Positions 2,338 to 63,391 of a stretch of 64,000 bases of DNA are shown here, piece after piece (position 1 is the first letter of the stretch; each line of letters opens with the position of its first letter). The notes beneath the pieces are model-generated. The model had not been told where the DNA came from. It searched no databases and saw nothing but the letters and a program-made list of their open reading frames with translations. The DNA is taken from positions 434,001 through 498,000 of the forward strand of contig NW_027590163.1 of the NCBI RefSeq assembly GCF_964213995.1, read 5' to 3'. Position numbers and translations under genes: made by a program. The DNA is from Mustelus asterias (taxonomy: Eukaryota).

Positions 2338-2432
2338 TGCTCCATGTGAAGCTCGAACTCATAACCTCGGCATCGCCTGCTGGTTGCGTTGCTGTATAAG
2401 TACCGTGCACTAACCAATTGAGACACTGGAGC
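2338..2432 (-). tRNA. tRNA-Ile(TAT) with ~21-nt intron, probably a pseudogene
   Basis: Reverse complement GCTCCAGTGTCTCAATTGGTTAGTGCACGGTACTTATA-[CAGCAACGCAACCAGCAGGCG]-ATGCCGAGGTTATGAGTTCGAGCTTCACATGGAGCA matches the vertebrate intron-containing Ile-TAT gene; D-stem and acceptor-stem mismatches. Confidence 0.85.
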
Positions 2433-3382
2433 AACGCTCGCTGCTGCATTGCGTCAGATTATTAATGGCTCCAACAGCGTCACTCCGTTAACAGATAGTC
2501 GAAGCCACATTTCAGTCGGGGAAACAAACCCATCAATGACTCTCTCTCATCCACGTCTCCACAGTGAGTGAGACAAGGACAAGCAGCAGGACTTTACCCC
2601 GCATTCTCCAATCACCCATTCGCTGCCAGCAGAGAGCGCCGACTGCAACTTCAATCAGCGGGTTAATGCACATCCCTGGGACACAAGACCCAACCCGGTT
2701 CAAACATTCCAATACACCGAGCACAGGCTCAGGAAAACAAAGGCAGATTATACCCGGCTCACTGAACCTTCGAGCAGCATTTAAACAATACCCGGGTGAG
2801 TCACAAACAGAATTCACACCAACTTTCCAAACCTTTTCAGTGATAAATTCCTCCATTTGATTGAAAAGCTGAGTGTTGTGAATCTGAAAATGAGCACCAT
2901 GGATTTGTGTTACCCAGTGACTTGTTTCCCACTGTTCGTCCGTCAAGTTTGCAATTCCATTTGTGTTGTATATTGAAGGGAATCTCATTTCAAAATGAGG
3001 AGGAAGCAAGGAAAATATTAAATCTTGGAACAAATCCTGATGGAAATACATCACAATATTTGGAAACAGGTGCAGCTGTGAATGGTGTCATTGATGATTG
3101 AGTGGAAAGTATTGGATCCTTGGGCTTCTGGTGGTCAGTTAACTTCCCTCCCGTTGAATTCCTCCCTGTGATAAGAGAAATGGATTCATTTTACCTGCAT
3201 GTTATCGGAGAAACGGAATAACCTCTATACCACAGCAATACTGCGGGATCAAAATAACCAAACAGACTTGTACAGGGTTGTAAACGGTACCGACATGATG
3301 GAGATCTGGAACAGGTTTAGCAGAAATATAATTGTGGTCATTGACTCCCTGGTTTTGAATATCTATGGTAGCTCCCGTTTTA

Positions 3383-3456
3383 GGCTCTGTGGCGCAAATT
3401 GTCAGCTCACTCGGTTGTTAAGCGGAAGGCTCGTTCTTCGAGACCACCCAGGGACG
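3383..3456 (+). pseudogene. tRNA-Asn(GTT) pseudogene
   Basis: GGCTCTGTGGCGCAAATTGTCAGCTCACTCGGTTGTTAAGCGGAAGGCTCGTTCTTCGAGACCACCCAGGGACG is colinear (74 nt) with vertebrate Asn-GTT, with many stem mismatches. Confidence 0.8.
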
Positions 3457-3959
3457 GACCTTTCACTGTTTTCTCTGCATCTTCATTCAAACGCAAACAG
3501 TTGCGAGTTGGTAATGGTCCGTGGGCGTCAATAAGAAAAAGCTCTCAAGTGTAACCGGCTGTGCTGTCATCTGGTATTACCTACATTATTTAATGTCTAT
3601 TGATTTCAAACATATTGCATATAATAATGTGTATATGCTTCCATTATACTATGAGACTGAACAATTGGAATAGAAATATTAATTTGCGGCTCAAAATGTG
3701 TTCCAACTCCATATTCCATGTTCCCAGTCATTGCTGGATAGATCACAAATCTGTCTCACCCAGACTGAAATGTGTTCAATGATGGAGCATTTACAAGCCT
3801 CTGGCGTGAACTCTGAATATTAGCTACCCTTTGAGCGAAGCAATTCCTCCTCACCTCAGACCTAAATAATCATCGCCTTATCCTGAGATTGTGCTCCGTG
3901 TTTTAGATTCCCGGACCAAGGAAAATATTATCTCAGCAACCACCCTTCAAATTCGTAGA

Positions 3960-4260
3960 ATCAGAGAATTCCTGCAGTACAGAAGGAGGCCATTCGGTAC
4001 ACCACGCCTATACCGATAACAATCTCACCTCCACCATATCCCCGTCGCACCACGTATTCACCTTGCTAATTCTTCTGACACTGCGAGGCAATTTAGCATG
4101 GCCAGTCCACCGAACCCACACATTTTGGGCAGGAAAGCGGTGCACCCAGAAGGAAATGCTCGCATACAAGGGGAAAACGTGCAAGCTCCAAACAGACAGT
4201 CACACGAGGCCGGAATTGAAACCGGATCTCTGACGCTCTGAAGCAGCAGTGCTGCACTCA
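3960..4260 (-). mobile_element. HE1-type V-SINE, old copy
   Basis: Diverged match to the young SINE copies at 59710-60060 and 63041-63380. Confidence 0.75.
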
Positions 4261-5285
4261 GTCAGTATTGTGTCGGTTTCATTGAAATCTTCTCTCATTC
4301 TGCGAAACTCCAGAGAATTTCACTTTAATATCGTCAGCCTGTCATCACAGAGTAACTCAACCCAGAGAAGAGTCTAGTGAACCTTCGCTGTACCGTCTCC
4401 CATAAATGCATAGCCTACTCTGACGAAGGGTCATCCTGACTCAAAACGTTGAATTTATCATCTCTCCAGAGATGCTGTAAGACCTGTTATGATTTTGCAG
4501 GAGTTACTGTTTCTGGTTCAGTTTCCAACAACCTCACTATTTTGGTTTTATTCCGTCTTAAATGTGGAGACCCAAACTGCGCGCACTATTCCAGATGTGG
4601 TCTCAACAATACCCTGAATAACTGTAGCAAGACTTGGAAACTTAACTGCGTGCTGAAGGCTGGAAGGAGAGGGTGACAATGGACAATTGGCATTGAGTAC
4701 ATTCCTGTAATCAGTGACTGGGAGGTTCAGGAAGCGAAGGTATCTGTGTCTCTTTCTGCTGTCCTCTCTAAACTCCATGTCCTCTCAATGCCGTGTGCCT
4801 GACATTCCCTGCCCCTGCTTTCCTGCTGAAGCTCGGGTTCACGAACTGTCTGTGTCTGTATCAAGCAGATAATTGGCCTTGGGTGCTGGACGGCCAGAGG
4901 GAGATGGATGAGATGCAGAGAAAGAAACAGGAAGAGAAGCGACATGACAGTGTTTCGTAAATGACTTATGTCAGTTTCTCTCCGTGATGAATGCCTGCCG
5001 TGTGTTACCTTGCAAGTTTCACAGAAGCCACAATGATGAGTTTGGTGGGTTTTGGAAACTGAAAGTGTCACAAGAGCAGCTTGCGGGACTATTTCACCTC
5101 ACTGTCGATTTCATGCTCCAGCTAACAGTAATCGCTGTTTTCATTGGCTGAAGCAGTCACGTGTGTTCGATTCGGACATGACAATTTAAAGGAGAAACTT
5201 GTTTTGGCGAATAAACCGTCTGCAATAAAAATAGAAGGCAGATGGTTCATGGCTAAATTAGTGTCTTAAATAACGTGCATCAACT

Positions 5286-5357
5286 TTCCTGATGGTCCAG
5301 TGGTTAGGATTCGGAGTTCTTACCATCGTGATCCCGCTTCGATTTCCGGTCAGGGAA
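5286..5357 (+). pseudogene. tRNA-Glu pseudogene
   Basis: TTCCTGATGGTCCAGTGGTTAGGATTCGGAGTTCTTACCATCGTGATCCCGCTTCGATTTCCGGTCAGGGAA is colinear (72 nt) with vertebrate Glu-CTC; anticodon arm and B box are damaged. Confidence 0.8.
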
Positions 5358-5399
5358 TGTCGATTTCTTGATGTGTAACAATGCTGCGTAACTTCATTC

Positions 5400-6810
5400 A
5401 TGTTTCATTCATGCTTCATTCTTATCTTCCTGCGGGTAATTTCAACCATTTATATTCAGTATTTGTTTCATGGAATCATAGAATCCCTACGGTGCTGAAA
5501 AGGCCATTCGGCCCAATGAACCTGCAGTGACGCCAGAGTATGGTAAAAAGGCTCTTCCCCGTTCGATCCCCGTAACACTTGTCCTTTCCCATGGCTAATC
5601 TATTTAGCCAAGGGGAAATTTAGCATGCCCAATCCACCTAACCTGCGAATTCTCATTCAATATTTAATGTCAACACATTTATTGAAGATATATATATCCT
5701 AATTCAGAATTTAATATCCTTGGAATGTACAATCGGTCTGTCGTCATTGTTCAACTCCACTCTGTTGCTGCAGGTTCTTATGGTTAGACTGAAGGTTCGT
5801 GTACTTGAGCACAAGAAAACAACCGTTATTTTCAATTTGATGTCTCAAGTTATCGAGAATTTCATAATTTAAAAGGGTTCGTCTGGCGAATCGCGAAGGG
5901 GGCAATGATTTATGTTTAAGCATTAATGCATCATTCTCATCTTCCGTCGAATAATTTGAACCAGTTATATCCAGTATTTGCGTTTTTCAACATTTAATAT
6001 CAATACATTTATTTGACACATATGTCCTCATTCTGAATTGAATATCTCTGAAATAAAGAACATTGAATTGCAAACATGATTGACCAACAATGAAATCGAG
6101 TCACTGGGTAATACAGATCCCATGGTACTTATTTGAGATTAACAGTCATCTTTTAAACCAAATCAAACATATTTTAAGGGAAGAGATTTGAGAATGATCT
6201 GCTAGTTATACTTGATCTCTCTTTATGCTCTGCGTGAAACATTCCGGCGCCTCAATCTCGTTCATCTATCGGAATTCCAGCAGGTCCACACTGATTCTCG
6301 ATTCCCTCATCTGTCTGAGAGGTTTTTCCTATTTATTTATCATGAAGAACAATGTTAAAAAGATGTTGCTGGGCAATGGGCGGCACGTTAGCACTGCGGC
6401 TTCACAGCTCCAGAGGACCTGGGTTCGAATCCCGGCTCAGGTCGCTGTCTGTGTGGAGTTTGCACATTCTCCCTGTGTCTGCGTGGGTTTTTTCTGGGTG
6501 CTCCTGTTTCCTCCCACAATCCAAAGATGTGCGGGCTAGATTGATTGGTCATTCTAAATTGCCCCTTAGTGTCCCGGGATGCATAGGTTAGAGGGGTTAG
6601 AGGGTTAATATGTAGGGATATGTGGATAGGGCCTAGGTGGGATTGTGGTTGGTGGAGACTGGATGGGCCGAATGGCCTCTTTCCACACTGTAAGGGTCTA
6701 TGATTCTAGAATGTGCGCCATTTCCTCTCGTTCAGTTACAGTTTCACATGGATCTGCCTTTATGAGCATGCAATAATATTAGACACGTTGCAGATGGTGA
6801 TTTCAGACTA
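5400..6810 (-). repeat. Inverted partial copies of the ~1.07-kb tRNA-Val array unit (tRNA absent), interrupted by SINEs
   Basis: The reverse complement contains GAACCTGCAGCAACAGAGTGGAGTTGAACA, GATGAGGGAATCGAGAATCAGTG and CATCTGCAACGTGTCTAATA, which are shared with units at 21.7-28.6 kb. Confidence 0.8.
6370..6710 (+). mobile_element. HE1-type V-SINE
   Basis: tRNA-like head (GGTTCGAATCCC B box), V-SINE core TGTGTGGAGTTTGCACATTCTCC, CR1-like 3' end GGGCCGAATGGCCT and TCTATGATTCTA tail. Confidence 0.9.
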
Positions 6811-7359
6811 TCTCACCCAAGGGTCAATTTAGCATACCTAATCTGTGTCTTGACCCAGACTTTGAAGGAGAGTCATAGAATCATAGAAACCCTACAGTGC
6901 AGAAGGAGGCCATTCGGCCCATCGAGTCTGCACCGACCACAATCCCACCCAGGCCCGGCCAGCGTTCTTGAAGAGGCCTGAAGAACTTGAGCTGCTTCTC
7001 CATTTTTTCGTACTTAAGGGTAGTCACGATTGATAGGAATAAGATTTGGAAGAAACTGACATTTTTAACGTATTGATTGAAGAATGTGACGAAACGTCAA
7101 TTCTTTATTTTTTCAGTCATTCGTGGGATGTGGGCGATTCATTGTCCGTTCCTGAGGGTATTTCAGAGTCCACCACATTGCTGTGGATCATCAGTCACAT
7201 GCAGGCCAAACCACGTGAGGACGGCATATTTCCTTCCCTATAGGACATTAGTGAGCCAGGTGGATTTTACAATGTTTGGCAACGATTTCATCGCAATCAT
7301 TAGACTTTTAACTCCAGCTTTCGATACTTTTAACTCAAATTCATATTTTCGCCAACGGA

Positions 7360-8040
7360 AGATGATTTTATACAGTCAGCATGTAAAGTGGCATCAGTGG
7401 TTTTCAAAGTTTACATATCAATATGTAATATAATATCGAGGCAATACTATTTTGTTTATCTTTGCATCATTATAAAAATAAAAAAAAATACTGAACAGGA
7501 CATGGCAAAAAATTATACAGTCGGAGCCTAGTATATTAATGAAGGACCCACGGACTATTAAAGAATTCGGAGGGCCTTAAAACATTCAGAGACAGAGATT
7601 AGTGTAATTATGAAGGAGAAAATGGCCAACACAAGAATAACGTGGGTCCGGTAAAACATTAGCAGAGAATAAGCCAATTGTAATAATCATGAGGCCTAGG
7701 ACTGGTACAAAAATATCCTAACATTGACTTAAGTGATTCAGTCTCAGTTTTGTTTCCCAACCCCCAAGCGATGCGTTTTGTGGTGTCTCATTGCATTAAA
7801 CGTGCTGTTGAAGTGGAAGTTGTTTGGACGAATGCACTTTGTGTGGTGTGGATGGTTGTTGGTGCATGCCAGGATAATTTGTGTGGTGTAGGTTTACAAG
7901 CCCTGTTTAGTATTTTACTAGGATACAGGGATAAACAAAACAGAGCTTTACTGTGTTGTCTCTATATGATATTACACAATGACATGTAACCTTTGAAAAC
8001 CATTGATGCCATTTTACATGCTGATTGCATAAATCATTTT
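7360..8040. repeat. ~680-bp element bounded by ~120-140-bp inverted repeats (MITE/foldback-like)
   Basis: 7362-~7500 is the diverged reverse complement of ~7900-8038; both strands translate to QHVKWHQWFSK in the ORF track. Confidence 0.7.
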
Positions 8041-8242
8041 CAATCGCCTCCCTGGAGTTCCCCAAAATTTTCACATCTTCCCAGAAGGAACATGGCAAAT
8101 TAATGCTGAATCTGTTTGTTCACGTAACTGGAAATTATTGTGAAAAATGCCTCCCTATAGATTTACAGCAGTATAAATGAAGGCATATTTGACCTTGTCA
8201 AAGACAATTTCTGTGTTCAACTGTCATTGCTTCTTATACAGA

Positions 8243-8312
8243 ATGCATGGTCGAATAAGTGGTGTAGTTTATGCCATTTATTATCCAATTCTTGCCGCCA
8301 TTGGAGTTCCGG
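8243..8312 (+). CDS. GPR139-like GPCR, coding exon 1 (MHGRISGVVYAIYYPILAAIGVP)
   Basis: YYPxLxxxGVP is the TM1 start of GPR139/GPR142-type receptors; a phase-1 GTAAG donor at 8313 joins in frame (G|TT = Val) to the acceptor at 17995. Confidence 0.85.
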
Positions 8313-8559
8313 GTAAGTCGTTTTACGAAATTATTGACTTGACAAATCACTGTGTTATTAAGTTAGTACTGTACACAATAATTAACAGTGTATCATTTTC
8401 CGAATATTTACTAAAACCTTATTTACCCAGCAGCACTCGAGCTTTTCATCATTTAAAAACTCGTTTTTTAAAACTCCAACTTTAATCGTTAATTCTCTGG
8501 CACATCTGATAGACTCTCTCTATAATATATAAATACATTGTGGAGAACATAAAAATTAA

Positions 8560-11659: not shown

Positions 11660-11990
11660 GGTTATGTTACTGGATTAACGATGCAGAAGCTGGACTAATG
11701 GTCCGGAGACATGAGTTGAAATCCCACAACTTAATTTAAATTGAGCCAACAGAACAATCTTAAATGGTGGCATCTGTAATAGTAATCTGTAATACCAGAT
11801 TACTGCAAAAACTCCATCTGGTTCCATATCTTTCTTTATGGAAGGAAATCGACACTTGCGGATATATGTTTCCAGGTCCACAATGGTATAACTGAACATT
11901 AACCACACTCTGAAATGACCCAGAAAACCGCTCAGTCGATAGGTGGCGGTGGATAATAACTGCTGGTGTTCCAAAGACGCTCAAGACCCG
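11660..11990 (+). mobile_element. Second tRNA-derived SINE family (other copies on - at ~2060-2310, 7110-7345, 19470-19815, 48500-48885)
   Basis: Shared core CCATCTGGTTC...GGAAGGAAATC...ACTCTGAAATG and a tRNA-like head in the best copy (48500-48885). Confidence 0.7.
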
Positions 11991-12786: not shown

Positions 12787-12893
12787 GGATATTATAGCAA
12801 TTATTATCTTATATTATAGCAATTATTATAGCAATATTATAGCAATGCTATTGTATAATATTATAGCAATTATTATAGCAATATTATAGCAAT
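12787..12893. repeat. Local tandem expansion of (TATTATAGCAA)n inside the CR1 APE region
   Basis: About seven imperfect TATTATAGCAA units at a site where intact CR1 copies have a single DIIAI codon stretch. Confidence 0.85.
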
Positions 12894-17995: not shown

Positions 17996-18903
17996 TTAAC
18001 TTGATGGCGATCGTGATCCTCTCCCGTGGAAGGTGTGGTCTCTCCAAATGCATTACTCGGTATCTGGTTTCCATGGCAGTGACAGATCTCCTTGTCGTTG
18101 TCACGGCTGTGATATTCAACCGGATTATTGGCATTTATTTTCCAGTTAGTTTTATGTCATTGACCCCAGCCTGCACTCTGAGTACTGTGCTGATCTATGC
18201 AGCTACGGAGAGTTCTGTCTGGTTAACTGTCGTTTTCACCTTTGATCGTTATGTGGCCATTTGCTGCCAGAAACTTCAATCAAACTATTGCACTGAGAAA
18301 ACAGCAGCTTTGGTGATCATAATGGTCAGCTTGTTGAGTTGTTTAAAAAGCATTCCCTGGTACTTTATATACGAACCACTCTACATAGTGAACAAAGTGC
18401 CTTGGTTTTGTAATATAAAATCAAGCTTCTACACTTCCCTTGCATGGACAGCCTATGACTGGTTTGCACGTGTATTAAATCCAGGTCTGCCATTCCTCCT
18501 TATTTTGTCGTTCAATGCTCTGACTGTCAGACACATCCTGGCAGCCAGTAGCTCCCGCCGGAGACTCCGAGCTCACAGCAGTGGAGAGAATCACAGTGAT
18601 CCAGAGATGGAGAGCAGAAAAAGGTCCATCGTTTTACTCTTTGCCATCTCTGGAAGCTTTGTTTTGTTGTGGATGACGTATGTTATAAATTTCATCTATG
18701 TGAAGATTACAAATGAATCTTACTTCGGAGGATCTAATTTCAACGACCCCAAATTTATTCGACAAGAAAGTGGAAACATGCTTCAACTCCTGAGCTGTTG
18801 CACCAACACGTGTATTTATGCAGTGACACAGAGAAAGTTCAGAGAGGAGTTGAAAAATGCGGCAAGATATTTTGGGAATCTCATTGTAAAATCAATAAAG
18901 TAG
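17996..18903 (+). CDS. GPR139-like class A GPCR, main coding exon (full protein 325 aa with exon 1)
   Basis: Open frame with the hydrophobic TM segments, TM2 MAVTDL, TM3 FTFDRYVAIC, ECL2 Cys, TM7 SCCTNTCIY and helix 8 FREEL; polypyrimidine acceptor TTTTCCCTCTCAG at 17983-17995. Confidence 0.92.
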
Positions 18904-21110: not shown

Positions 21111-22509
21111 ATTGTCATAAATCCATATTCACTGGCCATGAGAGTAATATTAACCAACATATTGGCGACACAGGAATAAAAGAGGCAGGACCTGATATAA
21201 TATTGGAATCGACAGGTATTTGTGTGATCATTATCGTAAAAGTGCTTTGCCCAATAATAATTGGAAGAGCTCAAATGGAACAATAACTGAAATAGGTCCT
21301 TATTCAGAACTGATAGCGCAACCGTTTCCAAAAATAATCATAGATGATTAAAGCATTAGAAGCTGTATGGCAGGAAGACTATTTGTGTAAACATTGCATT
21401 ATTTGTGTCCACTCTAATTATGAAACACAAAATAAAATGAGCAAAGTCAAGACTTGACTGAGTGTAACAACTGTTGTTTGATGTAACTTTAACAAAGGCA
21501 GTCTGCACTACATTCCTGAACACATACAAAGAACAAGGAACAAAGAGCATTGCTGCACAAGAATTGGCCATTCGGCCCACCAAACTTGCGCCAACACGTA
21601 AAGCCTTCCGAAACGAAAGATCTTCTGCCTCTAAGTGGTCCATATCCCTCCATCCCCTAGCTATTCATGTATCTGTCAAGATGCTGTATGTTAGGACGCA
21701 ATGGCAGGAAATAAACGTGTGTATTGTTTGTACACATATTCGCAGAATTTAATGGGTTTAAAGATGCAGTCTAACAGATTTAATCATCATCTGAAACGTG
21801 ACTATTGGTATTGCGAGATCACAAAGACAGATAAAGTGAAAATGTAACTGAATTAGAGGGAATGGTGCGCATTTCTCAGAAGGATCTATTCAAAATTGTT
21901 CTTCATTTTAAAGAAACAGGAAAAACCACCCAAGCAGATAAGGAAATCGAGAATCAGTTGGACTGCCTCGAGATGAACGAGGTTTAGGCGCCAAAATGTT
22001 TCACACACAAAATAAAGAAGGATCAAGTATAACTAACAGATCAATCTTAAATCTCTTCCCTTGAAATATATTTGATTTTGTTTAAAAGAGAATTGCTGTC
22101 AATCTCAAATAGGCACCATGGCATATGTATTACCCAGAGGCTCGATTTCCTTTGTTGATCGGACATGCTTGCAATTCACTGTTGCATATTTCAGAGATAT
22201 TCAATTCAGAATGAGGACATCTGTGTTAAATTGATGTTAAATGGTGAATAACGAACAAATGCTGCACATAACTAATTGAAATTAGTCGATGGATGATGAG
22301 AATGATGCATTAATGATTGAGCAGTAATCATTGCTCCCTTAAACATTTGCGGGACCAACGCATTTTAATGCTTATGTACAAGGTAAGTTGAGACATCAGG
22401 TTGCAAGTTCTTTTATTAAGGGACATGGGTACTCAATCTCACCATTCGAACCTGCAGTAACACAGTGGAGTTGAACATTGTAGTCAGGCCGATTGACGGC
22501 AGTAAGCTG

Positions 22510-22583
22510 TCATTTGTCTCTGATGTGGTTATCATGTTCACTTAAAACACGAAAAGTCCCCGGTTCGTAACCGGGCAGAAAAA
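22510..22583 (+). pseudogene. tRNA-Val pseudogene (array unit)
   Basis: GTGGTTATCATGTTCAC...AAAAGTCCCCGGTTCGTAACCGGGCAGAAA resembles the Val-AAC/CAC body. Confidence 0.75.
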
Positions 22584-23222
22584 AAATCATTAAGCTTTTT
22601 CATGCAGGGTGAGGGACATCCGGATCAGTTCATCTTGTTGCTGAACATTATCAGAATCTCGATGTGACGACATATTATTTTTGCTCTGATCTCGGCCCTC
22701 AAATGCTTTCTGTAACATAAGAAATGCTGGATTTCTTGACGTACCGACAGGAAAGAAGCGGCAGAATTTAATGGGTTTATAGGTGCAGACTAACAAAGTT
22801 AATCACCATCTGAAACATGTCTAATAGCAGTGTGTGCTCAAAACGACAGACACAAGTGATAGTGCAAGTGAACTAGAGGAAATGGTGCACATTTCTCAGA
22901 GCATTAAAAAAAATCGCTTTCATAATAAAGGAATAGGAAAAAAACACTCAGACAGATGAGGAAATCGAGACTCAGTGCGGATCTGCTGTTCTATCCTATA
23001 GAGCCGGAATTTAGGTGCCTGAATGTTCCACACTCAGAATCAAAAAGGCTCAAGTATAACTAACGGCTAATTCTTCAATCTCTTCCATTTAAAAATAGTT
23101 GACTTCGCTTAAAAGCTGACATTGGTCAATCTCAAAAAAGCACTATGGGACCTGGATTACCCGGTGACTTCGTTCCTTTTGATGGTTAGTTATATTTTCA
23201 ATTCAGTGAGATTCAATTTCAA

Positions 23223-24650
23223 TGTGAGGTAATGCATTTTGGAAGTTCTAATGCAGATAGGAAATATACAGTGAATGGCAGAAGAACCCTTAAGAGTACT
23301 GATAGGCAGACGGATCTGGGTGTATAGGTACACAGGTCACTGAAAGTGACAATGCAGTTGGAGAAGGTACTCAAGAAGGCATACGGCATGCTTGCCTTCA
23401 TCGGCCAGGGTATTGAGTTTAGGAGTCGGGAGATAATGCTGCAGCTTTATAGGACCCTGGTTAGACCCCACTTGGAGTACTGCGCGCAGTTCTGGTCACC
23501 TCATTACAGGAAAGATGTTGAAGCCATTGAAAGGGTGCAGAGGAGATTTACAAGGATGTTGCCTGGATTGGGGGGCATGCCTTATGAGGATAGGTTGAGG
23601 GAGCTTGGTCTCTTCTCCCTGGAGACACGAAGGATGAGAGGTGACCTGATAGAGGTTTACAAGATGTTGAGAGGTCTGGATAGGGTAGACTCTCAGAGGC
23701 TATTTCCAAGGGCTGAAATGGTTGCTACGAGAGGACACAGGTTTAAGGTGCTGGGGGGGGGGGGGGGGGTAGGTACAGAGGAGATGTCAGGGGTAAGTTT
23801 TTCACTCAGAGGGTGGTGGGTGAGTGGAATCGGCTGACGTCGGTGGTGGTGGAGGCAAACTCGTTGGGGTCTTTTAAGAGACTTCTGGATGAGTACATGG
23901 GATTTAATGGGATTGAGGGCTATAGATAGGCCTAGAGGTAGGGATATGATCAGCGCAACTTGTGGGCCGAAGGGCCTGTTTGTGCTGTGGCCTTCTATGT
24001 TCTATGTTCTATTGAGTTTAAAAATTGGCAAGTCATTTTTCAGCTTTATAGTACCTTAGTTAGGCCACACTTAGAATATAGTGTTCAATTCTGGTCGCCC
24101 CTCTAGCAGAAGGATGTGAAGGCTTTGGATAGGGTACCAAAAAGGTTTACCAGGATGTTGCCTGGCATGGAGGGCATTAGCTATGAGGAGAGGTTGGAGA
24201 AACCTCGTTTATTCTCACTGGAACGACGGAGATTGAGGGGCGACCTGATGGAAGTCTACAAAATTATGAGGGGCATGGACAGAGTGAACAGTCAGAAGCT
24301 TTTTCCCAGTTGGAAGAGTCAGTTACTAGGAGGCATAGGTTTAAGGCGCGAGAGGCAACGTTTAAAGGAGATACACGAGTTTTTTACACAGAGGGTGGTG
24401 GGGGCCTGGAACTCTCTGCCGGGAGGGGTTGTGGAAGCAGATATGATAGTGACTTTTAAGAGGCGTCTTAACAAATGCATGAATAGGATGGGAGTAGATG
24501 GATACAGTCCCCGGAAGGATAGGGGGTTTTAGTGCAGTCGGGCAGCATGGTCGGTGCAGGCTTCACTTCGGTGAAGGCCGAAGTGCCAGTTCCTGTGCTG
24601 TAATTTTCTTTGTTGTTCTTTGTTCTATGTTCTTAGTTCTTTGCTCTTTG
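23223..24650 (+). mobile_element. CR1 3' fragment inserted in the array, itself interrupted by a second CR1 (23422-24009)
   Basis: Outer TSD TTCAA (23218-23222 / 24651-24655); inner TSD TATTGAGTTTA (23411-23421 / 24010-24020); two separate microsatellite tails. Confidence 0.88.
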
Positions 24651-24989
24651 TTCAAACATATTCAATTCGTAATGAAGGCATATGTAATCAATAATGTATT
24701 GATATTGAATATTGAATAACAAAACGAACACTGAGTACAATTGGTTGGGATTATTCGAAGGAAGATGAGATTGATGCATTAATGAATGAGCAAAAATCAT
24801 TGCTCCCTTAGATATTTGCCAGACGATGGCTTTTAAATTTTGAAATTCAAGATAAGTTGAGAAATCAGTTGAAAGTAATGGTTTTCTTCTCGAATTAAGT
24901 GACATGCAGTGAATTCCAGTGGAACCTGCAGCAACACAGCACAGTTGAATATTGCAGACAGGCCGATTTGCTGCAGTGTGCTGTACGCC

Positions 24990-25062
24990 GTTTCTGTATT
25001 GTAATGGTTATCACGTTCGCCTCATACGTGAAAAATCTCCAGTTCGAAACCAGTCAGAAGCA
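24990..25062 (+). pseudogene. tRNA-Val-derived pseudogene with CAT at the anticodon
   Basis: GTTTCTGTATTGTAATGGTTATCACGTTCGCCTCATACGTGAAAAATCTCCAGTTCGAAACCAGTCAGAAGCA, 73 nt, Val-CAC body. Confidence 0.8.
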
Positions 25063-26081
25063 GTGTTGGATTCTTCTCGTTAACTTGAGCGAAGTCTGCA
25101 TGACTTAACTTCATTGCTCAATAGTATGCGAATCTCCATGTTACATCAACTCATGCTTTTTTGGAAAATCAGATCTTACAAAATCTGAAAGGCTTTTAGG
25201 AAATTCAGAAATGCTCTATTTTGGACGCAATGGCAGGAAATAAATGTTTGTATTGTTGGTATACATATTCGCAGCTCGTTCAATGCACATCAGAATTTCA
25301 TGGGTTTATAGATGCAGACTAATATATTTAATCACCATCTGAAATATGTCTAATAATGTAGCCTGCTCATGAATACAGACGCAAGTAAAACTGTGATTGA
25401 ACTGGAGGGAATGGCGCATATTTCCCAGAAGGACTCTTTCAAAATTGTTCTTCATGATAAAGAAACAGAAAAAACCACTCAGCCAGATGAGGAAATCGAG
25501 TATCAGTGCGGACCTGCTGGACTTCTTATAGATGAACGAGATTTAAACGCCAGAATGTTTCACACACAGAATAAAGAAGGATCGATTATAACAAACAGAT
25601 CATTCTTAAATCCCTGTTCTTGAAAGATATCTGATTTCGTTTAAAAGGTCATTGTGGTCAATCTCAAATAAGCACCATGACATGAGTATTGCCGAGTGAC
25701 TCGATGTTTTTTGTTGGTCACTCATCATTACAATTCAGCGTTGTGTATATTTAAGATATTTAATTCAGAATGAGGACATTTGTGTAAAATAAAGGTATTG
25801 ATATTAAAAATTGAATAACAACAAATACTAGATATAACTGGTTGAAATTATTCGACCGAAGATAAGAATGATTGAGCAGAAATCACGGCTCCCTTAGACA
25901 TTTTCCGGACGAACGCTTTTTAATGTTGAAGTAGAAGAAAAGTTGAGATATGAGGTTGAAAGTAACGGATGTGATCTTGTATTCATTGGCATGGGGTCTC
26001 AATCGAACCATGAGAACCTGCAGCAACACAGTGGAGTTGAACATTGTGGTCAGGCCAATTGGCGGTGCTACTCCATCACGT

Positions 26082-26142
26082 TTTGCTGTAGTGTAGTTGT
26101 TATCACGTTTGCCTCACACGCAAGGAGTGCCCGGTTCGAAAT
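26082..26142 (+). pseudogene. tRNA-Val(CAC) pseudogene, 3' end deleted
   Basis: CTGTAGTGTAGTTGTTATCACGTTTGCCTCACACGCAAGGAGTGCCCGGTTCGAAA, then similarity is lost. Confidence 0.78.
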
Positions 26143-27153
26143 TAATTAAGCTTTCTCATGCAGGGTGAAATAAATCTGGATTTCAGTTCGTTGCTGAACA
26201 TTATCCGAACCTCGATGTTGCAGCCATGTTATGTTTGATTTGACGTGGGTCTCAAATGCGTTCTGTTAAATCAGAAGTGTTCGATTTTTTTTGACATACT
26301 GACAGGAAAGCAACGTTCTTGTTTTGACACCTTGCACATCGTAGCTTCCCGCTCAGTCTACAACAGAATTCAGTGGGTTTATTGATGTAGACCAACATAT
26401 TTAATCACCATCTGAAACATGTCTAATAGTACTGCGTATTCATAAAGACAGACACAAATGAAACTCCAGCTGATTTAGAGGAAATGGCACACATTTCCCA
26501 GAAGAAACTTTTTTGAAATCGTTCTTCATAACAACGAAATAGGAAATACCACTCAGACAGATGAGGGAATCGAGACTCAGTCCGGCTCTGTTGGATTTTT
26601 CCTTGGAGATTTCGGCGCCAGAATGTTTCACAAACAGAATAAAGAGGGATCAAGTCTAACCAACAGATCATTCTTAAATCCCTCCCCTTGAAATATATTT
26701 GATTTTGTTTAAAAGATGATTGCAGTCAATCTGAATAAGCACCATGGCATGTGTATTACCAGGTGACTCGATTTTTCTTTGTTGGTCAGTCATGTTTGCA
26801 ATTCAATATTGTATATTTCAGAGATACTCAGTTCAGAATGAGGACATCTGCGTCAAATAAATGTATTGATATTGAATGTTGGATAACGATAAATATTGGA
26901 TAAAACTGGTTGAAATTATTCGAGGGAAAATGAGAATGATGCATTAAGGATTGAGCAGAAATCATTGCTTCCTTCTACAATTGCTGGACGACAGCTTTTT
27001 AATGTTGAAGTGCAAAATAAGATGAGATATCAGGTTGAAAGTCACGGCTGTGTTCTTGTATTCAGTGACACGGGCTCTCAATCTAACCATGAGAACCTGT
27101 AGCAACACAGTGGAATTGACCATTGCAGTCAGGCCACCTTGCCGCTGTGTGCT

Positions 27154-27225
27154 CCTTCTGTCGAGTAGTGGTTATCACGTTCGCCTAACACTCACAAAAT
27201 CCCTGGTTCGAAATTGGACAGAGCA
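27154..27225 (+). pseudogene. tRNA-Val(AAC) pseudogene
   Basis: GTAGTGGTTATCACGTTCGCCTAACAC...CCCTGGTTCGAAA. Confidence 0.78.
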
Positions 27226-28229
27226 TAGATTAAGCATTCTCATATCGGGTAAGGACAATCTTTTTGATTTCAGTTCGTTGCTGAACAGTATTCGAACCAC
27301 GAGTCATATTACCTTTACTCTGACCTCGGCCTCAAACGCTTTCTGTAAAATAAGAAATGCTCGATTTTTTGACGCACTGACAGGGAACCAACGATCCTGT
27401 TTTGACAAGGTGCACATATTAACATCTCGTTCAGTCTGCAACAGAATTTAATCGCTTTATAGGTGCAAACTAACTTGGTTAATCGCCATCTGAAACATGT
27501 CTAATAGTGCTGTGTGCACAAAAAGACAGACACAAATAATACTGTAACTGAACTAGAGGAAATGGCGCACATTTTCCGGAAGAATCCTTTTTTAAAAATC
27601 GTTCTTCAGAATAAAGAAATAGTAAAAACCACTCGAACAGATGAGGAAATCGAGAATCAGTGCGGATTTCCTGAACTTTCCTGCAGATGGCCGGAATTTA
27701 TGTGCCTGAATGCTTCACATCCATAAAAAAAAACGGCTCACCTATAACTAACGGATAATTCTTCAATCTCGCCCATTTAAATAGAGTTGACTTCATTGAA
27801 AAGCTGACTTTGGGCAATCTCAAATAAGCACCTTGGGATCTGTATTATCCGGAGACTCGAATCCTTTTGTTGGTCAGTTATGTTTGCAATTCAGTGATAT
27901 TCAATTTCAGAGATATTCAATTCATGAAGAGGAAATATGCCTTAAATGATGTATTGATACTAAATACTGAATAACGAGACAAATACTGTGTTCAATTGGT
28001 TGAGATTATTCGATTGAAGATGAGATTGATGCATTAATGAATGAACAGAAATCATTGCTCTCTTAGATATTCGTCAGAAGAAGGCTTTTAAATTTTGATG
28101 TTGAAGATAAATTGAGAAATCAGCTTGAATTAAGTGACATGGCCTCTCAGTCTAACCATTGGAACCTGCAGCAACACGGCGAAGTTGAACATTGCAGACA
28201 GGCCGATTTGCTGTAAGGTGTGGTCAGCT

Positions 28230-28301
28230 GTTTCTGTGGTATAATGGTTATCTCGTACCCTCACGTGCGAAAAGTCGCCAGTTCGGAACCAGGCAGGGAC
28301 A
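28230..28301 (+). pseudogene. tRNA-Val(CAC) pseudogene
   Basis: GTTTCTGTGGTATAATGGTTATCTCG...CTCACGTGCGAAAAGTCGCCAGTTCGGAACCAGGCAGGGACA. Confidence 0.75.
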
Positions 28302-29022
28302 CTGTTGGATCTTTATCATTAAGCGTGAGGGAAATCTGCCTGATGTAAGCTCATGGTTCAGCCTTATGCGAATCTCGATGTTACATCCATTTTATATTGC
28401 CTTTGAGCTCGGCCTCAACTGTTTTTAAGAAAATTGAAAATGTTATATTTTAGGACGCATTGTCAGGAAATAAATATTTGTATTGTTTGTACACTTCGCA
28501 TCTCGTTCAATCCTCATCATAATTTAATGTGTTAATAGATGCAGCCTAATACATTAAATCACCATCTGAAACATGGCTAATAGTATTGTGTGCCCCGAGG
28601 GACAGACGCAAGTGTAACTGAAACCGAACTATTCTGGGTGTGAAACATTCTGGCGCTTAAATCCTGTTCATCTATCGGAAAACCCAACAGATCTACACTG
28701 ATTCTCGATTTTCTTATCTGTCTGAGTGTTTTTATTTCTATTTCATTACTATGATGAACTATTTGAAAACGTTTCTTCTGGGCAATGTGTGCCATTGCCT
28801 CCAGTTCAGTTACAGTAGCACTTGCCTCTGTCTTTATGAACACACAATACCATTACACATGGTTCAGATGGTAATTAAAAATGATAATCTGCATCTATAA
28901 ACCCAATACATTTTATTTGTGGACTGAATGAGCAGGTATTATGTGCTCGATGTCAAAATAGGAGCATATGTTTCCTTTCATTATGTGATGAAAATGCACC
29001 CTTAATGAACAAATTGTAATAA

Positions 29023-29095
29023 CATTTCACGCTGGTTTCGAATGGGCGACCTCGCGTGTGTGAGATAAATACAATCACCACCACACTACAGAAGC
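29023..29095 (-). pseudogene. tRNA-Val pseudogene in an inverted terminal array unit (~28630-29140)
   Basis: Reverse complement GCTTCTGTAGTGTGGTGGTGATTG...CTCACACACGCGAGGTCGCCCATTCGAAACCAGCGTGAAATG; the flank at 28630-28900 is an inverted array unit. Confidence 0.7.
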
Positions 29096-29550
29096 TGCTG
29101 TTTTCCATGCGGCCCAATGGGACTGCCTTAACATGTTGCAACATTCATTAGAAATGCTGTATTGATATTGATATTGATCCAAGAATGATTGGAAATAGTT
29201 GACACTGGCAGACAACAATAAGAAGCCCTTCGAACCACATGTCTATGCCAGTTAGTTTATGTGGAGCTAGCCGACTAAGGTTTTGCTGCGTGCATGATGG
29301 GCCGAAGGGTGTTTTCCTGTACTCCACCGTCCATTGTTCTAATCTCAATTTCCTTCTCTCGTTGCATGTCTGACTGAATCTCTCTCAGTGAATGGGAATG
29401 GAATGAATCAGAAATTGAGAAGGAGAGAGGGAACCCGGGCACTGTTCAGCTCTTTGGTCCACCCACACACTGCAGGGGCCAGCCCGTTTGTGACCTCACT
29501 CAGGAGCACATCCCTATTGGTTTTTGTGTATTTAATCAACATTCTTGAAC

Positions 29551-29569
29551 CTGGCGCCCTCTGCTGGCC
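29551..29569 (-). promoter_or_regulatory. Consensus-like CTCF motif between the tRNA array and the V cluster
   Basis: Reverse complement GGCCAGCAGAGGGCGCCAG fits the CCASYAGRKGGCRS core. Confidence 0.55.
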
Positions 29570-30452
29570 AATTCAATCCGGATTAGAATGCGGCCATTGG
29601 GTGGTTTCAGGGTTTAATAATTTACATATCAAGACACCAATGTCAGATATTGCCTCCCTGAAATTGGAGTTGCTAACACTCGGGCTTTATTTGTATCAAC
29701 ACGTATGCCATAAAATGGTGCTAATCTTTTATATTTGACTGTATAAAGTTCAGGACACAAGTTAGATAAAAAATCAAGATGTCCTACTACACAAGATCGT
29801 ACTAGGGATTAGGCCTGCAATATAAACAGTGAAGATAATCTGCGATTGTTCTTCTTCAATCAAAGACGGTAAAGGAGATACTAAATTTAAGTAGATAAAA
29901 GATTGAACGTGATTAATCACCTTCCACTTGCAGAAAATTTGGGAAAGCAACAAAGACTTTGAAAGAAAAAACAGAAGAAAATATTAAATTTAATTATTAC
30001 AATGTCAAATGTTCTAATGCAGTGTTTAAGATAGTATATTCAATTCAGTGAAGTCGGGAATGGGTTAATGAACTTTGTCACACTTAAGCATTAAGACCCG
30101 AACTCTGTGATTTTGTTGAGAACACTGCAGAGTTCATGTTTTCGTCAGAGTTCGGTGTTTTTCATGTCTGTGCCAGATAAGAGGAACAGCTATTCTTGCT
30201 GTCTCCACTTGTTATTAAGAAATGCGATTAACCCAGCTCGAAATAAGCTAAACAATCTCCAGTTTTATGTACCTTTGTTTAACACGATGGAGTTGACATG
30301 TATGCCTTCTGTGATCGTATAACCATAGATTCATATATATGTATATATATATATATATATATATTCATCATACGTTATTCATCTTATCCTGATATAAAGT
30401 ATTATACAAACCTGTATGTATATTTGTTAACTTGTTTGTGCAAAACCTGCGA

Positions 30453-30748
30453 TGTTGTTTCAAGGATATAAATGACGAGCAATCGTGGCCCTGGAGATCG
30501 AACAAACTACGCAGAGGAAGATACTGCTAATACAACAAGAATCTCACCATGAACAATGACAGACATCTTAGAGAATTGCAATGTAATGAGGGCGGGGCCC
30601 GGGACATATATAAACTCTGTTCTTACTTGTGTTCGAAGAGAAGGCTGGGGGTCCACTGTTAGGAACCTCACTTCTCCCACAATTGTGAAAATAAACCTGC
30701 ACTTTGATCCACTAATAGTGTCAGAGGTTTTTTTTTTAACCTACAACA
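30453..30748 (+). mobile_element. Possible solo LTR
   Basis: TGTTGT...ACAACA termini, GC box, TATATAAA, then AATAAA and a T-rich tract; no TSD found. Confidence 0.35.
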
Positions 30749-31074
30749 ATTCATGTCTCTTCTACTCTTTGTTTTCAGTCACTTGCAGAGCCAGCAGATG
30801 CAGGATAGTCACAGACTTCTGAAGTTTACACCGCCGCTGCTTTCGCTCCGTCCCTTCCAATTGCTTCCCTCAATTTCAAGCCTGCGGCAACCCAGCACAC
30901 AGCTTTCGTTCGCTGCTCTCGCTCTGACCCGATTGTGCTGTTGCAAAAATTGCGTGCCGCTGCTCCATTCTTCTCATCGGCTGGCACAACAGTGTAGTGG
31001 CAAGGGAATTATTATTATTTCTCCGTTGGCAGAAAATTTCTTGCACAGCAGAGAGTTACCACCGAGAGAGTATC

Positions 31075-31573
31075 ATGAGCACCAATATCGCACCCTTCAT
31101 CAGAATTTTATCAGGGAGTATTTCCTTCCCAGTAAAACTCCATTCCCCTCCTGACTGCTGTAACTCAGAAGTTGATGTTGAAAAAATAATATTGCTGGTG
31201 GAGTTGATGATTGTGAGATGATTATGAGACTGGTTTTGTTTGTTTCCTTAACTATTTGTTTGTGTTAGAACGGAGCCACCGAACTACACTGGAGCAGCCG
31301 GTTCCTGATATAACGGTTGAAGAGGTAAGCAATGTTGCAAACACCTGCACGTTGAAAACAAGCGATCTCAGGCCTAATGTATGCGGACCCTGAATAGTAC
31401 ACGCTTAATCCTTCTGGACAGGAATATTGGTATCACTGAACAGATTTATTTTCCGCTTAACATAATTGCCACTATCACCAATCAGTAATGCCCTGATCTC
31501 CGACACCCTCCGTGTATCTATGTGCCACGAACCCCACACTGATGCCGAGCGATAGAGGATCCCAAACCAAAAT
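31075..31573 (+). pseudogene. TCR alpha/delta V pseudogene (leader ~31075, V exon 31269-31534, RSS 31535-31573)
   Basis: TTLEQPVPDITVEEVSNVANTCTLKTSD ... ISNALISDT.VYLCAT; internal deletion and stops; heptamer CACACTG + 23 nt + AACCAAAAT. Confidence 0.8.
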
Positions 31574-32466
31574 TCACCCTGAGCTTTCAGTCTGTGCTCA
31601 GCAGAAAGCGCCTCCACACCGACAAAACAGAATAAATAATTCATCTTCCACTGTGCGTGTCTCGTGGGCCTTTTTAATGGATCATAAAGCATGTAACTTT
31701 CAACAAGAACAATTGGGGTCCACTGAAACAGATAGCTGAATTTGCCATTGAAAATGATAGTGAAATCGGGCTTTACAAAACGCCCTGTGATGCCATAATT
31801 CCTCGTCAGAAATTTTCACTGCTGGATTTGTTGCTCAATATCACATCTCAATTGGTCAACCGTAATCTTCTTACGACAGTCTTTTCTTTAACGGGGTCCA
31901 CCTTTGTCACTGTTCTCAATATTAATTCGGAACGACCCAGAGAACAAAGGATTCAGCCCCGGTTTTCAGCGAAGATTTTTTAAATATTTACTTCTTCCTG
32001 AAGAATATACAAATGGCGATACGAATGCCCCCTAGCCTGGTCATCGCCTATATGAACCTCTACCAAAGAGACGGAGGCGGCATTACTACTGCATTCTTTG
32101 CACATGAACTCTAATGTGTCACAGCACTACCTGCTATAGCCTGGCCCAGTTACTCGAATTGTTGTCGTCACTCTGACCCTCCTTCCGTGCTTTAAATTCT
32201 GTTTACGCTTCAGAATTGATTCGGTCAGCAGCGCAGTCGAGAGCCTGGTTGCAGTTCTCGTATTTCTGCTCTGGCAGAGGATTTGCCAGGACTTCACAGT
32301 TACACACAGAGGGAACTGCTACTGATCGTTGTAACCGCTCTCACTAAGTATCCCATGCCCACGAAAAATTCATTCTCTTCAGAGCTATGCTGACCTATAC
32401 GTCAGTGTTTTTTCTATGATCATGCGAATACAAATGCTGATATGTATCATTATTATGTCCTATTAG

Positions 32467-32590
32467 ATTGGAGCGACCAAGGGAAAGTAGAACAGTGTTT
32501 TTTGAAATGGCAGTTGGAGAGAGAAATAACATTGCGCCTAACTGCACCTAAAAACCAACGACCTTAGTCCTACTGTGATCTGGTACTATT
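32467..32590 (+). pseudogene. 5' fragment of a TCR V pseudogene (same family as 31.3 kb and 49.8 kb)
   Basis: Acceptor ATTAG, then DWSDQGKVEQ...AVGERNNIAPNCT.KTNDLSPTVIWY read through frameshifts; aligns with DWIHQDTVEQ...TCKFKTNDSDPYVFWY. Confidence 0.7.
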
Positions 32591-32959
32591 TCCAAGAAGA
32601 TGAAAAGAAAGGTCCTGTTCAATATCCATGCATAAATCACAATCACTGAAACAGACAGACCAATAGACCACTAAAGCATTACTGTGTGAATTGATATCCT
32701 GAGTCCAAGTTGGCTGTTGTCTTGTCTACGGTGATGGGGAAACACTCTAGGACATCAAACTCCATAAATATTCTAATGTTCGTTCTCTGAACTGCCCCCG
32801 TTGCTTTATTTTGATAATGTATTTATTAATAATGTAAGTATATATACGCATTATCCGCATTAATAGTTTAAGAAACCACCAGGATTTCAGGTTCCATTTC
32901 AGACTCACTCTGATCACAATGTTTACCTCAGGTTCTGTTATGTTGAGTGAGGCTCTGAC

Positions 32960-33428
32960 AGTTTGTCTACATGTTCAGCCCAGCTCTGTGTTTCTGTGGG
33001 TCTCAGTGCGCAGTAATACACCGCAGAGTCGGTCAGCTCTGTTTGAGACACTTTCAGTGGGACGGTGCGGGTTGTATCATTGAACTCCACTGAGAAACCG
33101 TCCCCTGGGGATCTCTCTGTGTTCCCATGTATTTACGTCTCTTCTGAAGATGTTCAATAAATCCATTGGGATACTGACGGTACCAGAATAGGTAATAATT
33201 GTCAATGATTATATTCGTATAATTACAAAATAACTGAACATCATCTCCTTCACTCACTGTGACTGCAGCTGGGATCTGTGAAACTGAGTCTCCTCCAGTA
33301 TGTCCTGTCAGAACCAAGAGTCATGTTAATTTAAATGATGTCAGTTCATTTTCTTTATAGACCAGAATAGATTCGTCACCCTGACCATAAGCTGAGAAAT
33401 AGACCATGGGATCTAAACAGAAACACAT
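32960..33428 (-). pseudogene. TCR alpha/delta V pseudogene (V exon 33304-32999; RSS 32998-32960)
   Basis: GDSVSQIPAAVTVSEGDDVQLFCNY...LFWYRQYP, a frameshift before FR3, then FSVEFNDTTRTVPLKVSQTELTDSAVYYCALR; heptamer CACAGAA + 23 + AGACAAACT; leader start uncertain. Confidence 0.88.
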
Positions 33429-47782: not shown

Positions 47783-47821
47783 CACAGTGTGACAAACACA
47801 GGGAGTTCCCGTACACAAAAT
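47783..47821 (+). promoter_or_regulatory. 23-RSS
   Basis: CACAGTG + 23 nt + ACACAAAAT. Confidence 0.9.
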
Positions 47822-63380: not shown

Positions 63381-63391
63381 CTGTCACTGTG

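What the first reader, a model, noticed from the sequence alone, without database searches (positions are those of the whole stretch)
2338..33428. Shark TCR V array abuts a tRNA cluster containing a GPR139-like GPCR
Seen: three unrelated multigene systems are packed together. tRNA pseudogenes (Ile, Asn, Glu, six Val) surround an intact GPCR gene, and the first V segment starts ~2 kb after the last tRNA-Val. Established: the mammalian TRA/TRD V region is bordered by olfactory-receptor GPCRs with tRNA genes nearby. Inference: a 'tRNA cluster + expanded GPCR family + TCR V array' neighbourhood may be ancient or convergent, with GPR139-like receptors in the slot held by ORs in mammals.
Basis: partly seen in the sequence, partly recalled or inferred. 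Interest (0 to 1): 0.7.

Follow-up and report, generated by a model that had tools for sequence, protein, structure and literature searches.

The report
Orphan receptors inside shark TCR complex
An intact orphan receptor gene and a run of decayed tRNA genes sit inside, not at the edge of, a shark's T-cell-receptor and antibody gene region, likely as passengers of repeated block duplications; the receptor–T-cell-gene neighbourhood is likely shared with other sharks and skates but has no link to the smell-receptor border of the mammalian locus.

Summary
There are nine decayed tRNA relics (five of the six Val relics form one ~1.08-kb tandem array), an intact two-exon 325-aa GPCR (dN/dS 0.13–0.21), and a broken V segment 2.2 kb after the last Val.

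The border reading fails. The window is an allele of G000:C71 at 11.94–12.0 Mb, inside an antigen-receptor chromosome. V segments span 4.5–19.2 Mb, with IgM, TCR-delta cassettes on both sides and TCR-alpha at 18.4 Mb. GPCR, tRNA or zinc-finger genes occur in 23 of 40 sampled 10-kb stretches of C71 and 0 of 20 controls. The GPCR family has at least 1,161 copies on many chromosomes. Olfactory receptors and DAD1 lie elsewhere.

What survives is an old elasmobranch linkage. The gene's ortholog clade spans sharks and rays, and family members share a chromosome, with near-adjacent accessions where I could compare them, with TCR V models in horn shark, thorny skate and basking shark.

Best reading: duplication-built mixed gene real estate, only analogous to mammals. 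This scan already noted GPCRs among V segments and 19 C-delta copies on other DNA of this genome. I also found two TCR-alpha loci, neither preceded by C-delta.

The parts
1336..1408 (+). seventh tRNA-Val relic (anticodon loop deleted), just outside the finding
2338..2432 (-). tRNA-Ile(TAT)-like pseudogene with intron
   Evidence: Rfam tRNA 18.5 bits, below cut-off; isotype from the TAT anticodon plus intron (recalled feature)
3385..3456 (+). tRNA-Asn-derived pseudogene
   Evidence: 75% to Asn(GTT) genes on C71, 81% to its paralog at C71:9.505 Mb
5285..5358 (+). tRNA-Glu-derived pseudogene (ARAGORN reads Lys-CTT)
   Evidence: 79% to Glu-CTC at C71:9,503,339
5416..6802 (-). inverted copy of the tRNA-Val tandem unit with no tRNA detected, split by a SINE
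8243..8312 (+). orphan GPCR exon 1 (N-terminus and start of TM1)
   Evidence: identical in protein to exon 1 of two 88% paralogs
17996..18903 (+). orphan GPCR exon 2; whole protein 325 aa, rhodopsin family, auto-named 'probable GPR139'
21681..28620 (+). decayed tandem array of a ~1.08-kb unit carrying five tRNA-Val relics (22508, 24990, 26079, 27154, 28230), interrupted by LINE pieces at about 23.2-24.6 kb
28630..29096 (-). inverted partial unit with the sixth tRNA-Val relic (29022-29096)
31270..31574 (+). TCR alpha/delta-type V pseudogene (frameshifts, stops) with degenerate RSS at 31535
32960..33299 (-). TCR alpha/delta-type V pseudogene (frameshift), degenerate 23-RSS at 32998
47516..47821 (+). 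open V-like segment with 23-RSS at 47783 (no Pfam hit; leader not resolved)
49685..49945 (-). V segment cut by a SINE insertion
56019..56522 (+). intact TCR alpha/delta V gene: leader exon 56019-56064, V exon 56175-56483, 23-RSS 56484-56522
58966..59262 (+). V pseudogene
61335..61961 (+). V pseudogene split by a SINE, RSS at 61923
63385..63690 (-). V pseudogene

Best explanation
The window is an interior slice of a shark antigen-receptor chromosome where T-cell-receptor V islands, IgM and TCR-delta cassettes, zinc-finger genes, tRNA arrays and many orphan GPCRs are intermixed, likely because repeated segmental duplications copied neighbours together as passengers. Each component then has its own fate: here the GPCR is kept by its own purifying selection, while the tRNA copies and the two nearest V segments have decayed (shown). 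The intact V at 56 kb would most likely join, by deletion, the co-oriented D-J-C-delta cassette about 256 kb downstream, which leaves the GPCR in place; a co-oriented V further upstream joining the same cassette would delete the GPCR and tRNA block from that allele (inferred from orientation and the 12/23 rule). The linkage of this GPCR lineage to TCR V segments likely predates the shark-ray split. The resemblance to olfactory receptors beside mammalian TRA/TRD is analogy, not descent.
For: Placement: the window matches C71:11.939-12.000 Mb at 98.8-99.8%. V segments lie on C71 from 4.5 to 19.2 Mb, 22 of 97 IgM CH2 matches are on C71 and the rest on small contigs numbered 87 or higher, C-delta is at 7.14, 11.04 and 12.27 Mb, and J-alpha/C-alpha at 18.37-18.43 Mb.

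Landscape: 40 spaced 10-kb C71 stretches gave GPCR 5, tRNA 6, zinc finger 12, any of these 23; 0 of 20 control stretches on C1-C20 (Fisher p=4e-6 for 'any').

Co-duplication: 12 of 12 paralogs at 87-88% have an opposite-strand V 7.9-10.5 kb downstream. Window 2678-5395 (tRNA-Asn/Glu) is 81% identical to a block about 8 kb from the 82% paralog at C71:9.51 Mb, with V segments between. The 40 scored candidate regions for the Val unit gave hits only on C71 or small contigs.

Selection: dN/dS 0.13-0.21 against 4 paralogs.

Age: a 16-row clade (support 100/99) holds the window gene with orthologs from sharks and batoids. Horn shark orthologs XP_067869824/826 share a 59.5-Mb contig with TCR V models XP_067869829/908; thorny skate GPCRs XP_032890390/391/430 bracket V model XP_032890418; basking shark GPCRs share a contig with a NAR-TCR/VH model.
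Against: GPCRs on C71 lie nearer to V segments than uniform placement predicts: 8 of 24 within 15 kb against 2.0 expected, and 5 of 20 against 1.6 without the window's clade, p=0.018. Co-duplication explains this, but so would selection; both lists are incomplete, biased to relatives of the window's genes, and not independent. GPCR enrichment on C71 alone is not significant (5/40 vs 0/20, p=0.16). Cross-species closeness rests on contig lengths and accession order (accession order tracking position is recalled, not tested), and the skate and basking shark genes are family members outside the ortholog clade. The order of C71 across such repeats may be mis-scaffolded. The window's flanks share little beyond the gene itself with the 88% paralogs, so it is an old, rearranged copy.
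Confidence: 0.78

Rival explanations
1. The GPCR clade is kept inside the antigen-receptor complex because it shares lymphocyte regulation: opening of V chromatin switches it on, and V(D)J deletion changes which GPCR copies each T-cell clone keeps.
For: Linkage likely kept across sharks and skates; 36 of 50 horn shark rows among the 120 best homologs lie on the TCR-V contig; purifying selection; excess closeness to V segments.
Against: The family forms clusters on many chromosomes and fills parts of C71 with no listed V segments (0.1-4.4 Mb). Local tandem expansion alone concentrates close relatives on one chromosome. Broken copies lie 30-55 kb away (C71:11.92 and 12.01 Mb). There is no expression evidence.
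Confidence: 0.1
2. One reading: an ancestral 'tRNA cluster + GPCR array + TCR V' border inherited by sharks and mammals, with GPR139-like genes in the OR slot.
For: ORs, METTL3 and SALL2 flank the 5' end of mammalian TRA/D and TRAV1 lies among ORs (PMC2275272, PMC3457774, passages).
Against: The block is not at a border. The shark receptor scores weakly against both GPR139 (37.9 bits) and an OR consensus (29.5 bits). The shark's ORs and DAD1 are on other chromosomes. The 5' OR synteny is absent in chicken according to PMC2275272 (passage), though PMC3457774 (passage) lists birds and amphibians as sharing it.
Confidence: 0.03
3. tRNA arrays were kept between V islands as RNA-polymerase-III/TFIIIC chromatin barriers that partition the repeated TCR-delta and IgM units.
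For: Barrier activity of tRNA genes is established elsewhere (recalled; search listing only). 10 of 16 exact matches to a tRNA-Val 5' half (pattern partly recalled) are on C71 or on contigs that also carry the Val unit, so sister arrays likely keep an intact gene.
Against: All tRNA copies in this window are decayed in their stems, and several in the A or B box. tRNA clusters also occur where no V is listed (C71:2.25 Mb).
Confidence: 0.04
4. The arrangement is an assembly artefact, or the V segments are unlinked orphons on a stray contig.
For: The window lies on a 1.05-Mb small contig, and many small contigs duplicate C71 sequence.
Against: The same order is assembled independently on C71. C-delta copies differ by 3-12%, and unitigs over C-delta have about 3-7 times single-copy depth in a public run (one sample, possibly the source animal).
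Confidence: 0.05

Closest known systems
Elasmobranch antigen-receptor complex, AgRC (Flajnik et al. 2025, PMC12227049; read: parts 1-2 of 8 of the main text, term passages, Table S1 whole)
   Same: IgM miniclusters, NAR-TCR and TCR alpha/delta V exons intermixed over many megabases (8.2-17.1 Mb in great white shark chr27, Table S1).
   Different: The paper names no GPCR or tRNA passengers (0 hits for 'GPR', 'G protein', 'tRNA' in the text; 0 for 'G-protein coupled', 'GPR139', 'tRNA' in 2 supplements) and describes TCR alpha/delta as translocon. This assembly has 19 C-delta exons and two C-alpha loci.
Mammalian TRA/TRD 5' flank (ORs, METTL3, SALL2; TRAV1 among ORs) (PMC2275272, PMC3457774; passages)
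   Same: A birth-and-death class A GPCR family interleaved with TCR V segments.
   Different: Different GPCR family; here the receptors run through the whole region instead of one end; ORs and DAD1 are unlinked in this genome. The human tRNA cluster near 14q11 is recalled only (one search found no paper).
RefSeq 'probable G-protein coupled receptor 139' models of sharks and rays
   Same: 2,216 database proteins at E<=1e-30; orthologs at 72-87% identity in several sharks and rays.
   Different: The label is a best-hit name; no paper on the expansion was found.
Human GPR139 (PDB 7VUG)
   Same: Best solved-structure hit over the whole 7TM.
   Different: Only 37.9 bits, barely above GPR21 (34.7) and CCR2 (32.9); a single-copy neural receptor (recalled) against more than a thousand copies here.

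Membership tests
TCR alpha/delta V gene segments | V-set exon with split leader and 3' 23-bp-spacer RSS | tested here: met
   56019-56522; the two segments inside the finding are broken members
TCR alpha/delta V gene segments | linked in cis to D/J/C of delta or alpha | tested here: met
   D, J, C-delta at C71:12.249-12.274 Mb; J/C-alpha at 18.37-18.43 Mb; scaffold order not checked independently
TCR alpha/delta V gene segments | used in rearranged transcripts | not testable with these tools
   no RNA holder listed
Elasmobranch AgRC | IgH clusters intermixed with TCR alpha/delta V and NAR-TCR | tested here: met
Elasmobranch AgRC | PSMB5 and UrIg2 linked | not tested
   no search made
Elasmobranch AgRC | single translocon TCR alpha/delta locus, delta in front of J-alpha | tested here: not met
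   19 C-delta exons; no C-delta in the 220 kb before J-alpha on C71 or anywhere on C546
Mammalian-type OR border of TRA/TRD | olfactory receptors beside the V region | tested here: not met
   3 OR hits, on C10 and C6
Mammalian-type OR border of TRA/TRD | GPCR block at the 5' end of the V array | tested here: not met
   V and C-delta on both sides
Mammalian-type OR border of TRA/TRD | DAD1 linked | tested here: not met
   hits on C7, C12, C17 only
Mammalian-type OR border of TRA/TRD | METTL3 and SALL2 linked | not tested
   no search made
GPR139 orthologs | high identity and one-to-one orthology with vertebrate GPR139 | tested here: inconclusive
   37.9 bits to human GPR139 and more than 1,000 paralogs argue against; no tree with true GPR139 was built
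Elasmobranch expanded orphan GPCR family | 7tm_1 protein of about 325 aa with many close shark and ray homologs | tested here: met
Functional tRNA genes | intact cloverleaf with A and B boxes | tested here: not met
   1 ARAGORN call with mutated anticodon, 1 marginal Rfam pass with many broken pairs

The most novel reading that the evidence does not exclude
A lineage of orphan GPCRs has lived inside the shark and ray antigen-receptor complex since before sharks and rays split because it is expressed in lymphocytes under V-gene regulation, so V(D)J deletion among the many TCR-delta cassettes gives each T-cell clone its own set of these receptors, a second, clonally varied receptor repertoire.
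Probability: 0.07. Interest if true: 0.85.

Novelty: new variant of a known kind. Interest (0 to 1): 0.4.

Why it matters
It adds an undescribed passenger layer (orphan GPCRs, tRNA arrays, zinc-finger genes) to the shark antigen-receptor complex and suggests the GPCR layer is as old as elasmobranchs. That explains why shark TCR V segments are spread over more than 10 Mb, and it gives synteny markers for finding this complex in other assemblies. It also removes a tempting false parallel with the mammalian OR border. If the receptors proved lymphocyte-expressed, recombination would diversify them clonally. The larger surprise is the locus around the window: many TCR-delta cassettes and two TCR-alpha loci uncoupled from delta, where reviews describe a translocon (PMC6795676, passage) and separation of alpha from delta with alpha duplication is reported as unusual, in newts (PMC12698447, passages).

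Tried and rejected
tRNA-derived SINE heads as the 'tRNAs': rejected for the nine relics, which match real tRNA genes over most of their length and sit in a non-SINE unit. One ARAGORN 'Cys' call that I used as a reference proved to be a SINE head (hits in 15 of 20 control stretches); those hits were dropped before the 6-of-40 tRNA count.

V segments nested in the GPCR intron: checked in 4 paralogs and the window; exon 1 lies 1.1-2.0 kb from exon 2 in the paralogs and the V segments are outside.

Expression: no RNA holder listed. The four laid runs look genomic, and no exon 1-exon 2 joint was among the rows shown; this is no evidence either way.

Rows that may derive from this same genome (P0005, P0009, P0063, P0065, P0126-P0133) were left out of the tree and not counted as independent. 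The C-delta homolog search gave only one model each for two other species, too thin to judge copy number elsewhere. The tree used 41 of 120 listed homologs plus 6 genes of this genome.

Deiss et al. 2019 (PMC7039070) was not held. Searches with no relevant paper by title or abstract start; the library lacks most subscription papers. Supplements of the other papers were not opened and could list flanking genes. No structure or complex prediction was run, since none would bear on the synteny claim.
Full report
OBSERVATION. ARAGORN finds one tRNA in 64 kb (5285-5358, read as Lys-CTT), and Rfam passes one other over its cut-off (24990-25062, 31.8 bits against 29). The rest are relics, identified by similarity to ARAGORN-called genes fetched from the same chromosome: Asn-like at 3385-3456 (75%), Glu-derived at 5285-5358 (79%), and six Val relics at 22.5, 25.0, 26.1, 27.2, 28.2 and 29.0 kb (73-86%), plus a seventh at 1.34 kb. 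The Ile(TAT) relic with intron at 2338-2432 scores 18.5 bits. Five Val relics belong to one decayed tandem array of a ~1.08-kb unit. The GPCR has two exons (8243-8312, 17996-18903), a LINE-swollen 9.7-kb intron and an open 325-aa frame. The first V (about 31270-31534) starts 2.2 kb after the last Val; it and the V at 33.0-33.3 kb are frameshifted. I count nine V-like segments in the window: one clearly intact (56019-56522), one open (47516), seven broken, including a short fragment near 53.6 kb read by eye.

WHERE IT LIES. The window is G000:C131:434001-498000 and matches C71:11.939-12.000 Mb at 98.8-99.8%, apart from a 3.36-kb insertion, so it is most likely the other allele. C71 (20.4 Mb) is an antigen-receptor chromosome. 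All 150 scored relatives of the intact V lie on C71 (22 rows, 6.5-17.4 Mb) or on small contigs. A second V type spans 4.5-19.2 Mb, with 1 of 150 rows on another chromosome. IgM CH2 has 97 matches, 22 on C71 and none on other large contigs. A delta-type C exon has 19 matches, 3 on C71 at 7.14, 11.04 and 12.27 Mb. The 12.27-Mb copy is a full cassette: NAR-type V-D-J, supporting V, VH-type V, D, several J, C and TM, behind an inverted IgM cluster. J-alpha (34 by RSS scan) and C-alpha lie at 18.37-18.43 Mb. The V segments are therefore linked, and the tRNA/GPCR block is interior, with C-delta about 0.9 Mb upstream and 0.3 Mb downstream. The mixing of IgM with TCR V over megabases is published (PMC12227049, Table S1).

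IS THE ADJACENCY CHANCE? The GPCR belongs to a huge family. A single exact motif has 1,161 matches (0 for the reversed control), and the first 100 listed already fall on 8 chromosomes. 40 of the 131 best-scoring relatives are on C71, from 0.12 to 17.5 Mb. In 40 spaced 10-kb stretches of C71, 5 hold such a GPCR, 6 a tRNA gene or relic and 12 a C2H2 zinc-finger gene (23 any), against 0 of 20 stretches on C1-C20 (p=4e-6 for any, 0.16 for the GPCR alone). SINE-head hits were dropped from that count, and the zinc-finger query came from C71. Four GPCR genes, two of them broken, lie in the 450 kb around the window. On this chromosome a GPCR and a tRNA array near a V island are unremarkable; genome-wide, the chromosome is of a special, multigene-packed kind.

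HOW IT AROSE. Neighbours travel together. All 12 paralogs at 87-88% have an opposite-strand V 7.9-10.5 kb downstream, and the two I read are wedged among V and NAR-V segments 2.9-3.8 kb away on both sides. The window's tRNA-Asn/Glu block recurs at 81% near the 82% paralog at C71:9.51 Mb, with V segments in between. The Val unit recurs at 77-80% along C71. Listed GPCRs are closer to listed V segments than uniform placement predicts (8 of 24 within 15 kb against 2.0; 5 of 20 against 1.6 without the window's clade). Duplication predicts this, but the test does not separate it from selection. The GPCR is under purifying selection (dN/dS 0.13-0.21, dS about 0.5) while the tRNAs and nearest V segments rot. 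Inferred consequence: the intact V (plus strand, 23-RSS) can join the 12-RSS of the D at C71:12,249,043, about 256 kb away, by deletion and spare the GPCR; an upstream plus-strand V such as that at 11.10 Mb would delete it from that allele.

HOW OLD. The window gene falls in a 16-row clade (support 100/99) with orthologs from sevengill, whale, horn and cat sharks and a sister group of skates and rays (47 rows, midpoint root). In the horn shark its two orthologs (XP_067869824, XP_067869826) are on the same 59.5-Mb contig as TCR V models XP_067869829 and XP_067869908, and 36 of 50 horn shark rows among the best 120 homologs are on that contig. In the thorny skate 3 of 3 listed family members share the contig of a V model, and their accessions bracket it. 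In the basking shark 2 of 2 share a contig with a NAR-TCR/VH model. That RefSeq accession order follows position is recalled, not tested. The neighbourhood likely predates the shark-ray split; chimaeras are untested.

THE MAMMALIAN PARALLEL. ORs, METTL3 and SALL2 flank the 5' end of mammalian TRA/D, TRAV1 lies among ORs, and DAD1 marks the 3' end. Here the 3 OR hits are on C10 and C6 and the DAD1 hits on C7, C12 and C17. The shark receptor is no OR and only weakly like GPR139 (37.9 bits, against 29.5 for an OR consensus). The human tRNA cluster near TRA/D is recalled; I found no paper for it. The parallel is at most convergence of birth-and-death families in duplication-prone DNA.

NOVELTY AND EARLIER NOTES. 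I found no paper on GPCR or tRNA passengers in the shark complex. Earlier unreviewed notes of this scan report the 19 C-delta copies, GPCRs among V segments with a likely shared neighbourhood, and the family's scatter in other shark genomes. I had the C-delta count and the duplication reading before looking; the cross-species test was planned after seeing one of those notes. The C-delta multiplicity looks real: copies differ by 3-12% with one near-identical pair, and unitig depth over the exon is about 3-7 times single-copy depth in one public sample. A second alpha locus on C546 (140 J by RSS scan, C exon 72% identical to that on C71, zinc-finger genes and no C-delta between V and J) was not in the notes shown to me.

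VERDICT. A real, correctly read arrangement: ordinary for this chromosome, old within elasmobranchs, and not the shark counterpart of the OR border. Interest 0.4.

Noticed in passing
G000:C546 (L167-L191) and G000:C71:18.15-18.47 Mb (L040-L066, L192-L196): Two distinct TCR-alpha loci: C546 has 140 J segments and a C exon 72% identical in protein to that on C71 (34 J). In both, zinc-finger genes and no C-delta lie upstream of the J array. Alleles this different are unlikely, but depth was not checked.
   Followed up: partly
19 places in G000, e.g. C71:7.14, 11.04, 12.27 Mb (L001-L006, L011-L016, L099-L104): Open TCR-delta C exons in repeated cassettes with their own J, and in the one read in full NAR-V, D and VH-type V; 88-97% alike, with 3-7-fold unitig depth. 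Already noted by this scan on other DNA.
   Followed up: partly
window 34438-37797: 3.36-kb CR1-like LINE with an open 907-aa frame, absent from the C71 allele: a young polymorphic insertion in the V island.
   Followed up: partly
G000:C71:12,229,725-12,229,886 (L011): The supporting V-delta is followed by three tandem perfect 23-RSS copies at 61-bp spacing.
   Followed up: no
G000:C71:11,023,481-11,023,965 (L102): A V segment ends about 150 bp before the first J-delta of the 11.04-Mb cassette, directly behind an IgM cluster; a compact or partly germline-joined unit is possible.
   Followed up: no
G000:C71:5.027-5.034 Mb and 10.679-10.686 Mb (L085, L084): Near-identical inverted duplicate of a tRNA-Leu plus Val array block 5.6 Mb apart; may be a recent duplication or a mis-scaffolded haplotype.
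   Followed up: no
G000:C24:38,776,888: A single TCR-alpha-type V (64% to the query, open) on another chromosome, a likely true orphon.
   Followed up: no
G000 C71 and small contigs C89, C91, C105, C107, C132, C173, C549, C597, C726: 10 of 16 exact matches to a tRNA-Val 5' half (pattern partly recalled) lie here, 8 of them 2-3 kb from a Val-unit hit, so immune-complex blocks may hold a large share of the intact Val genes.
   Followed up: partly
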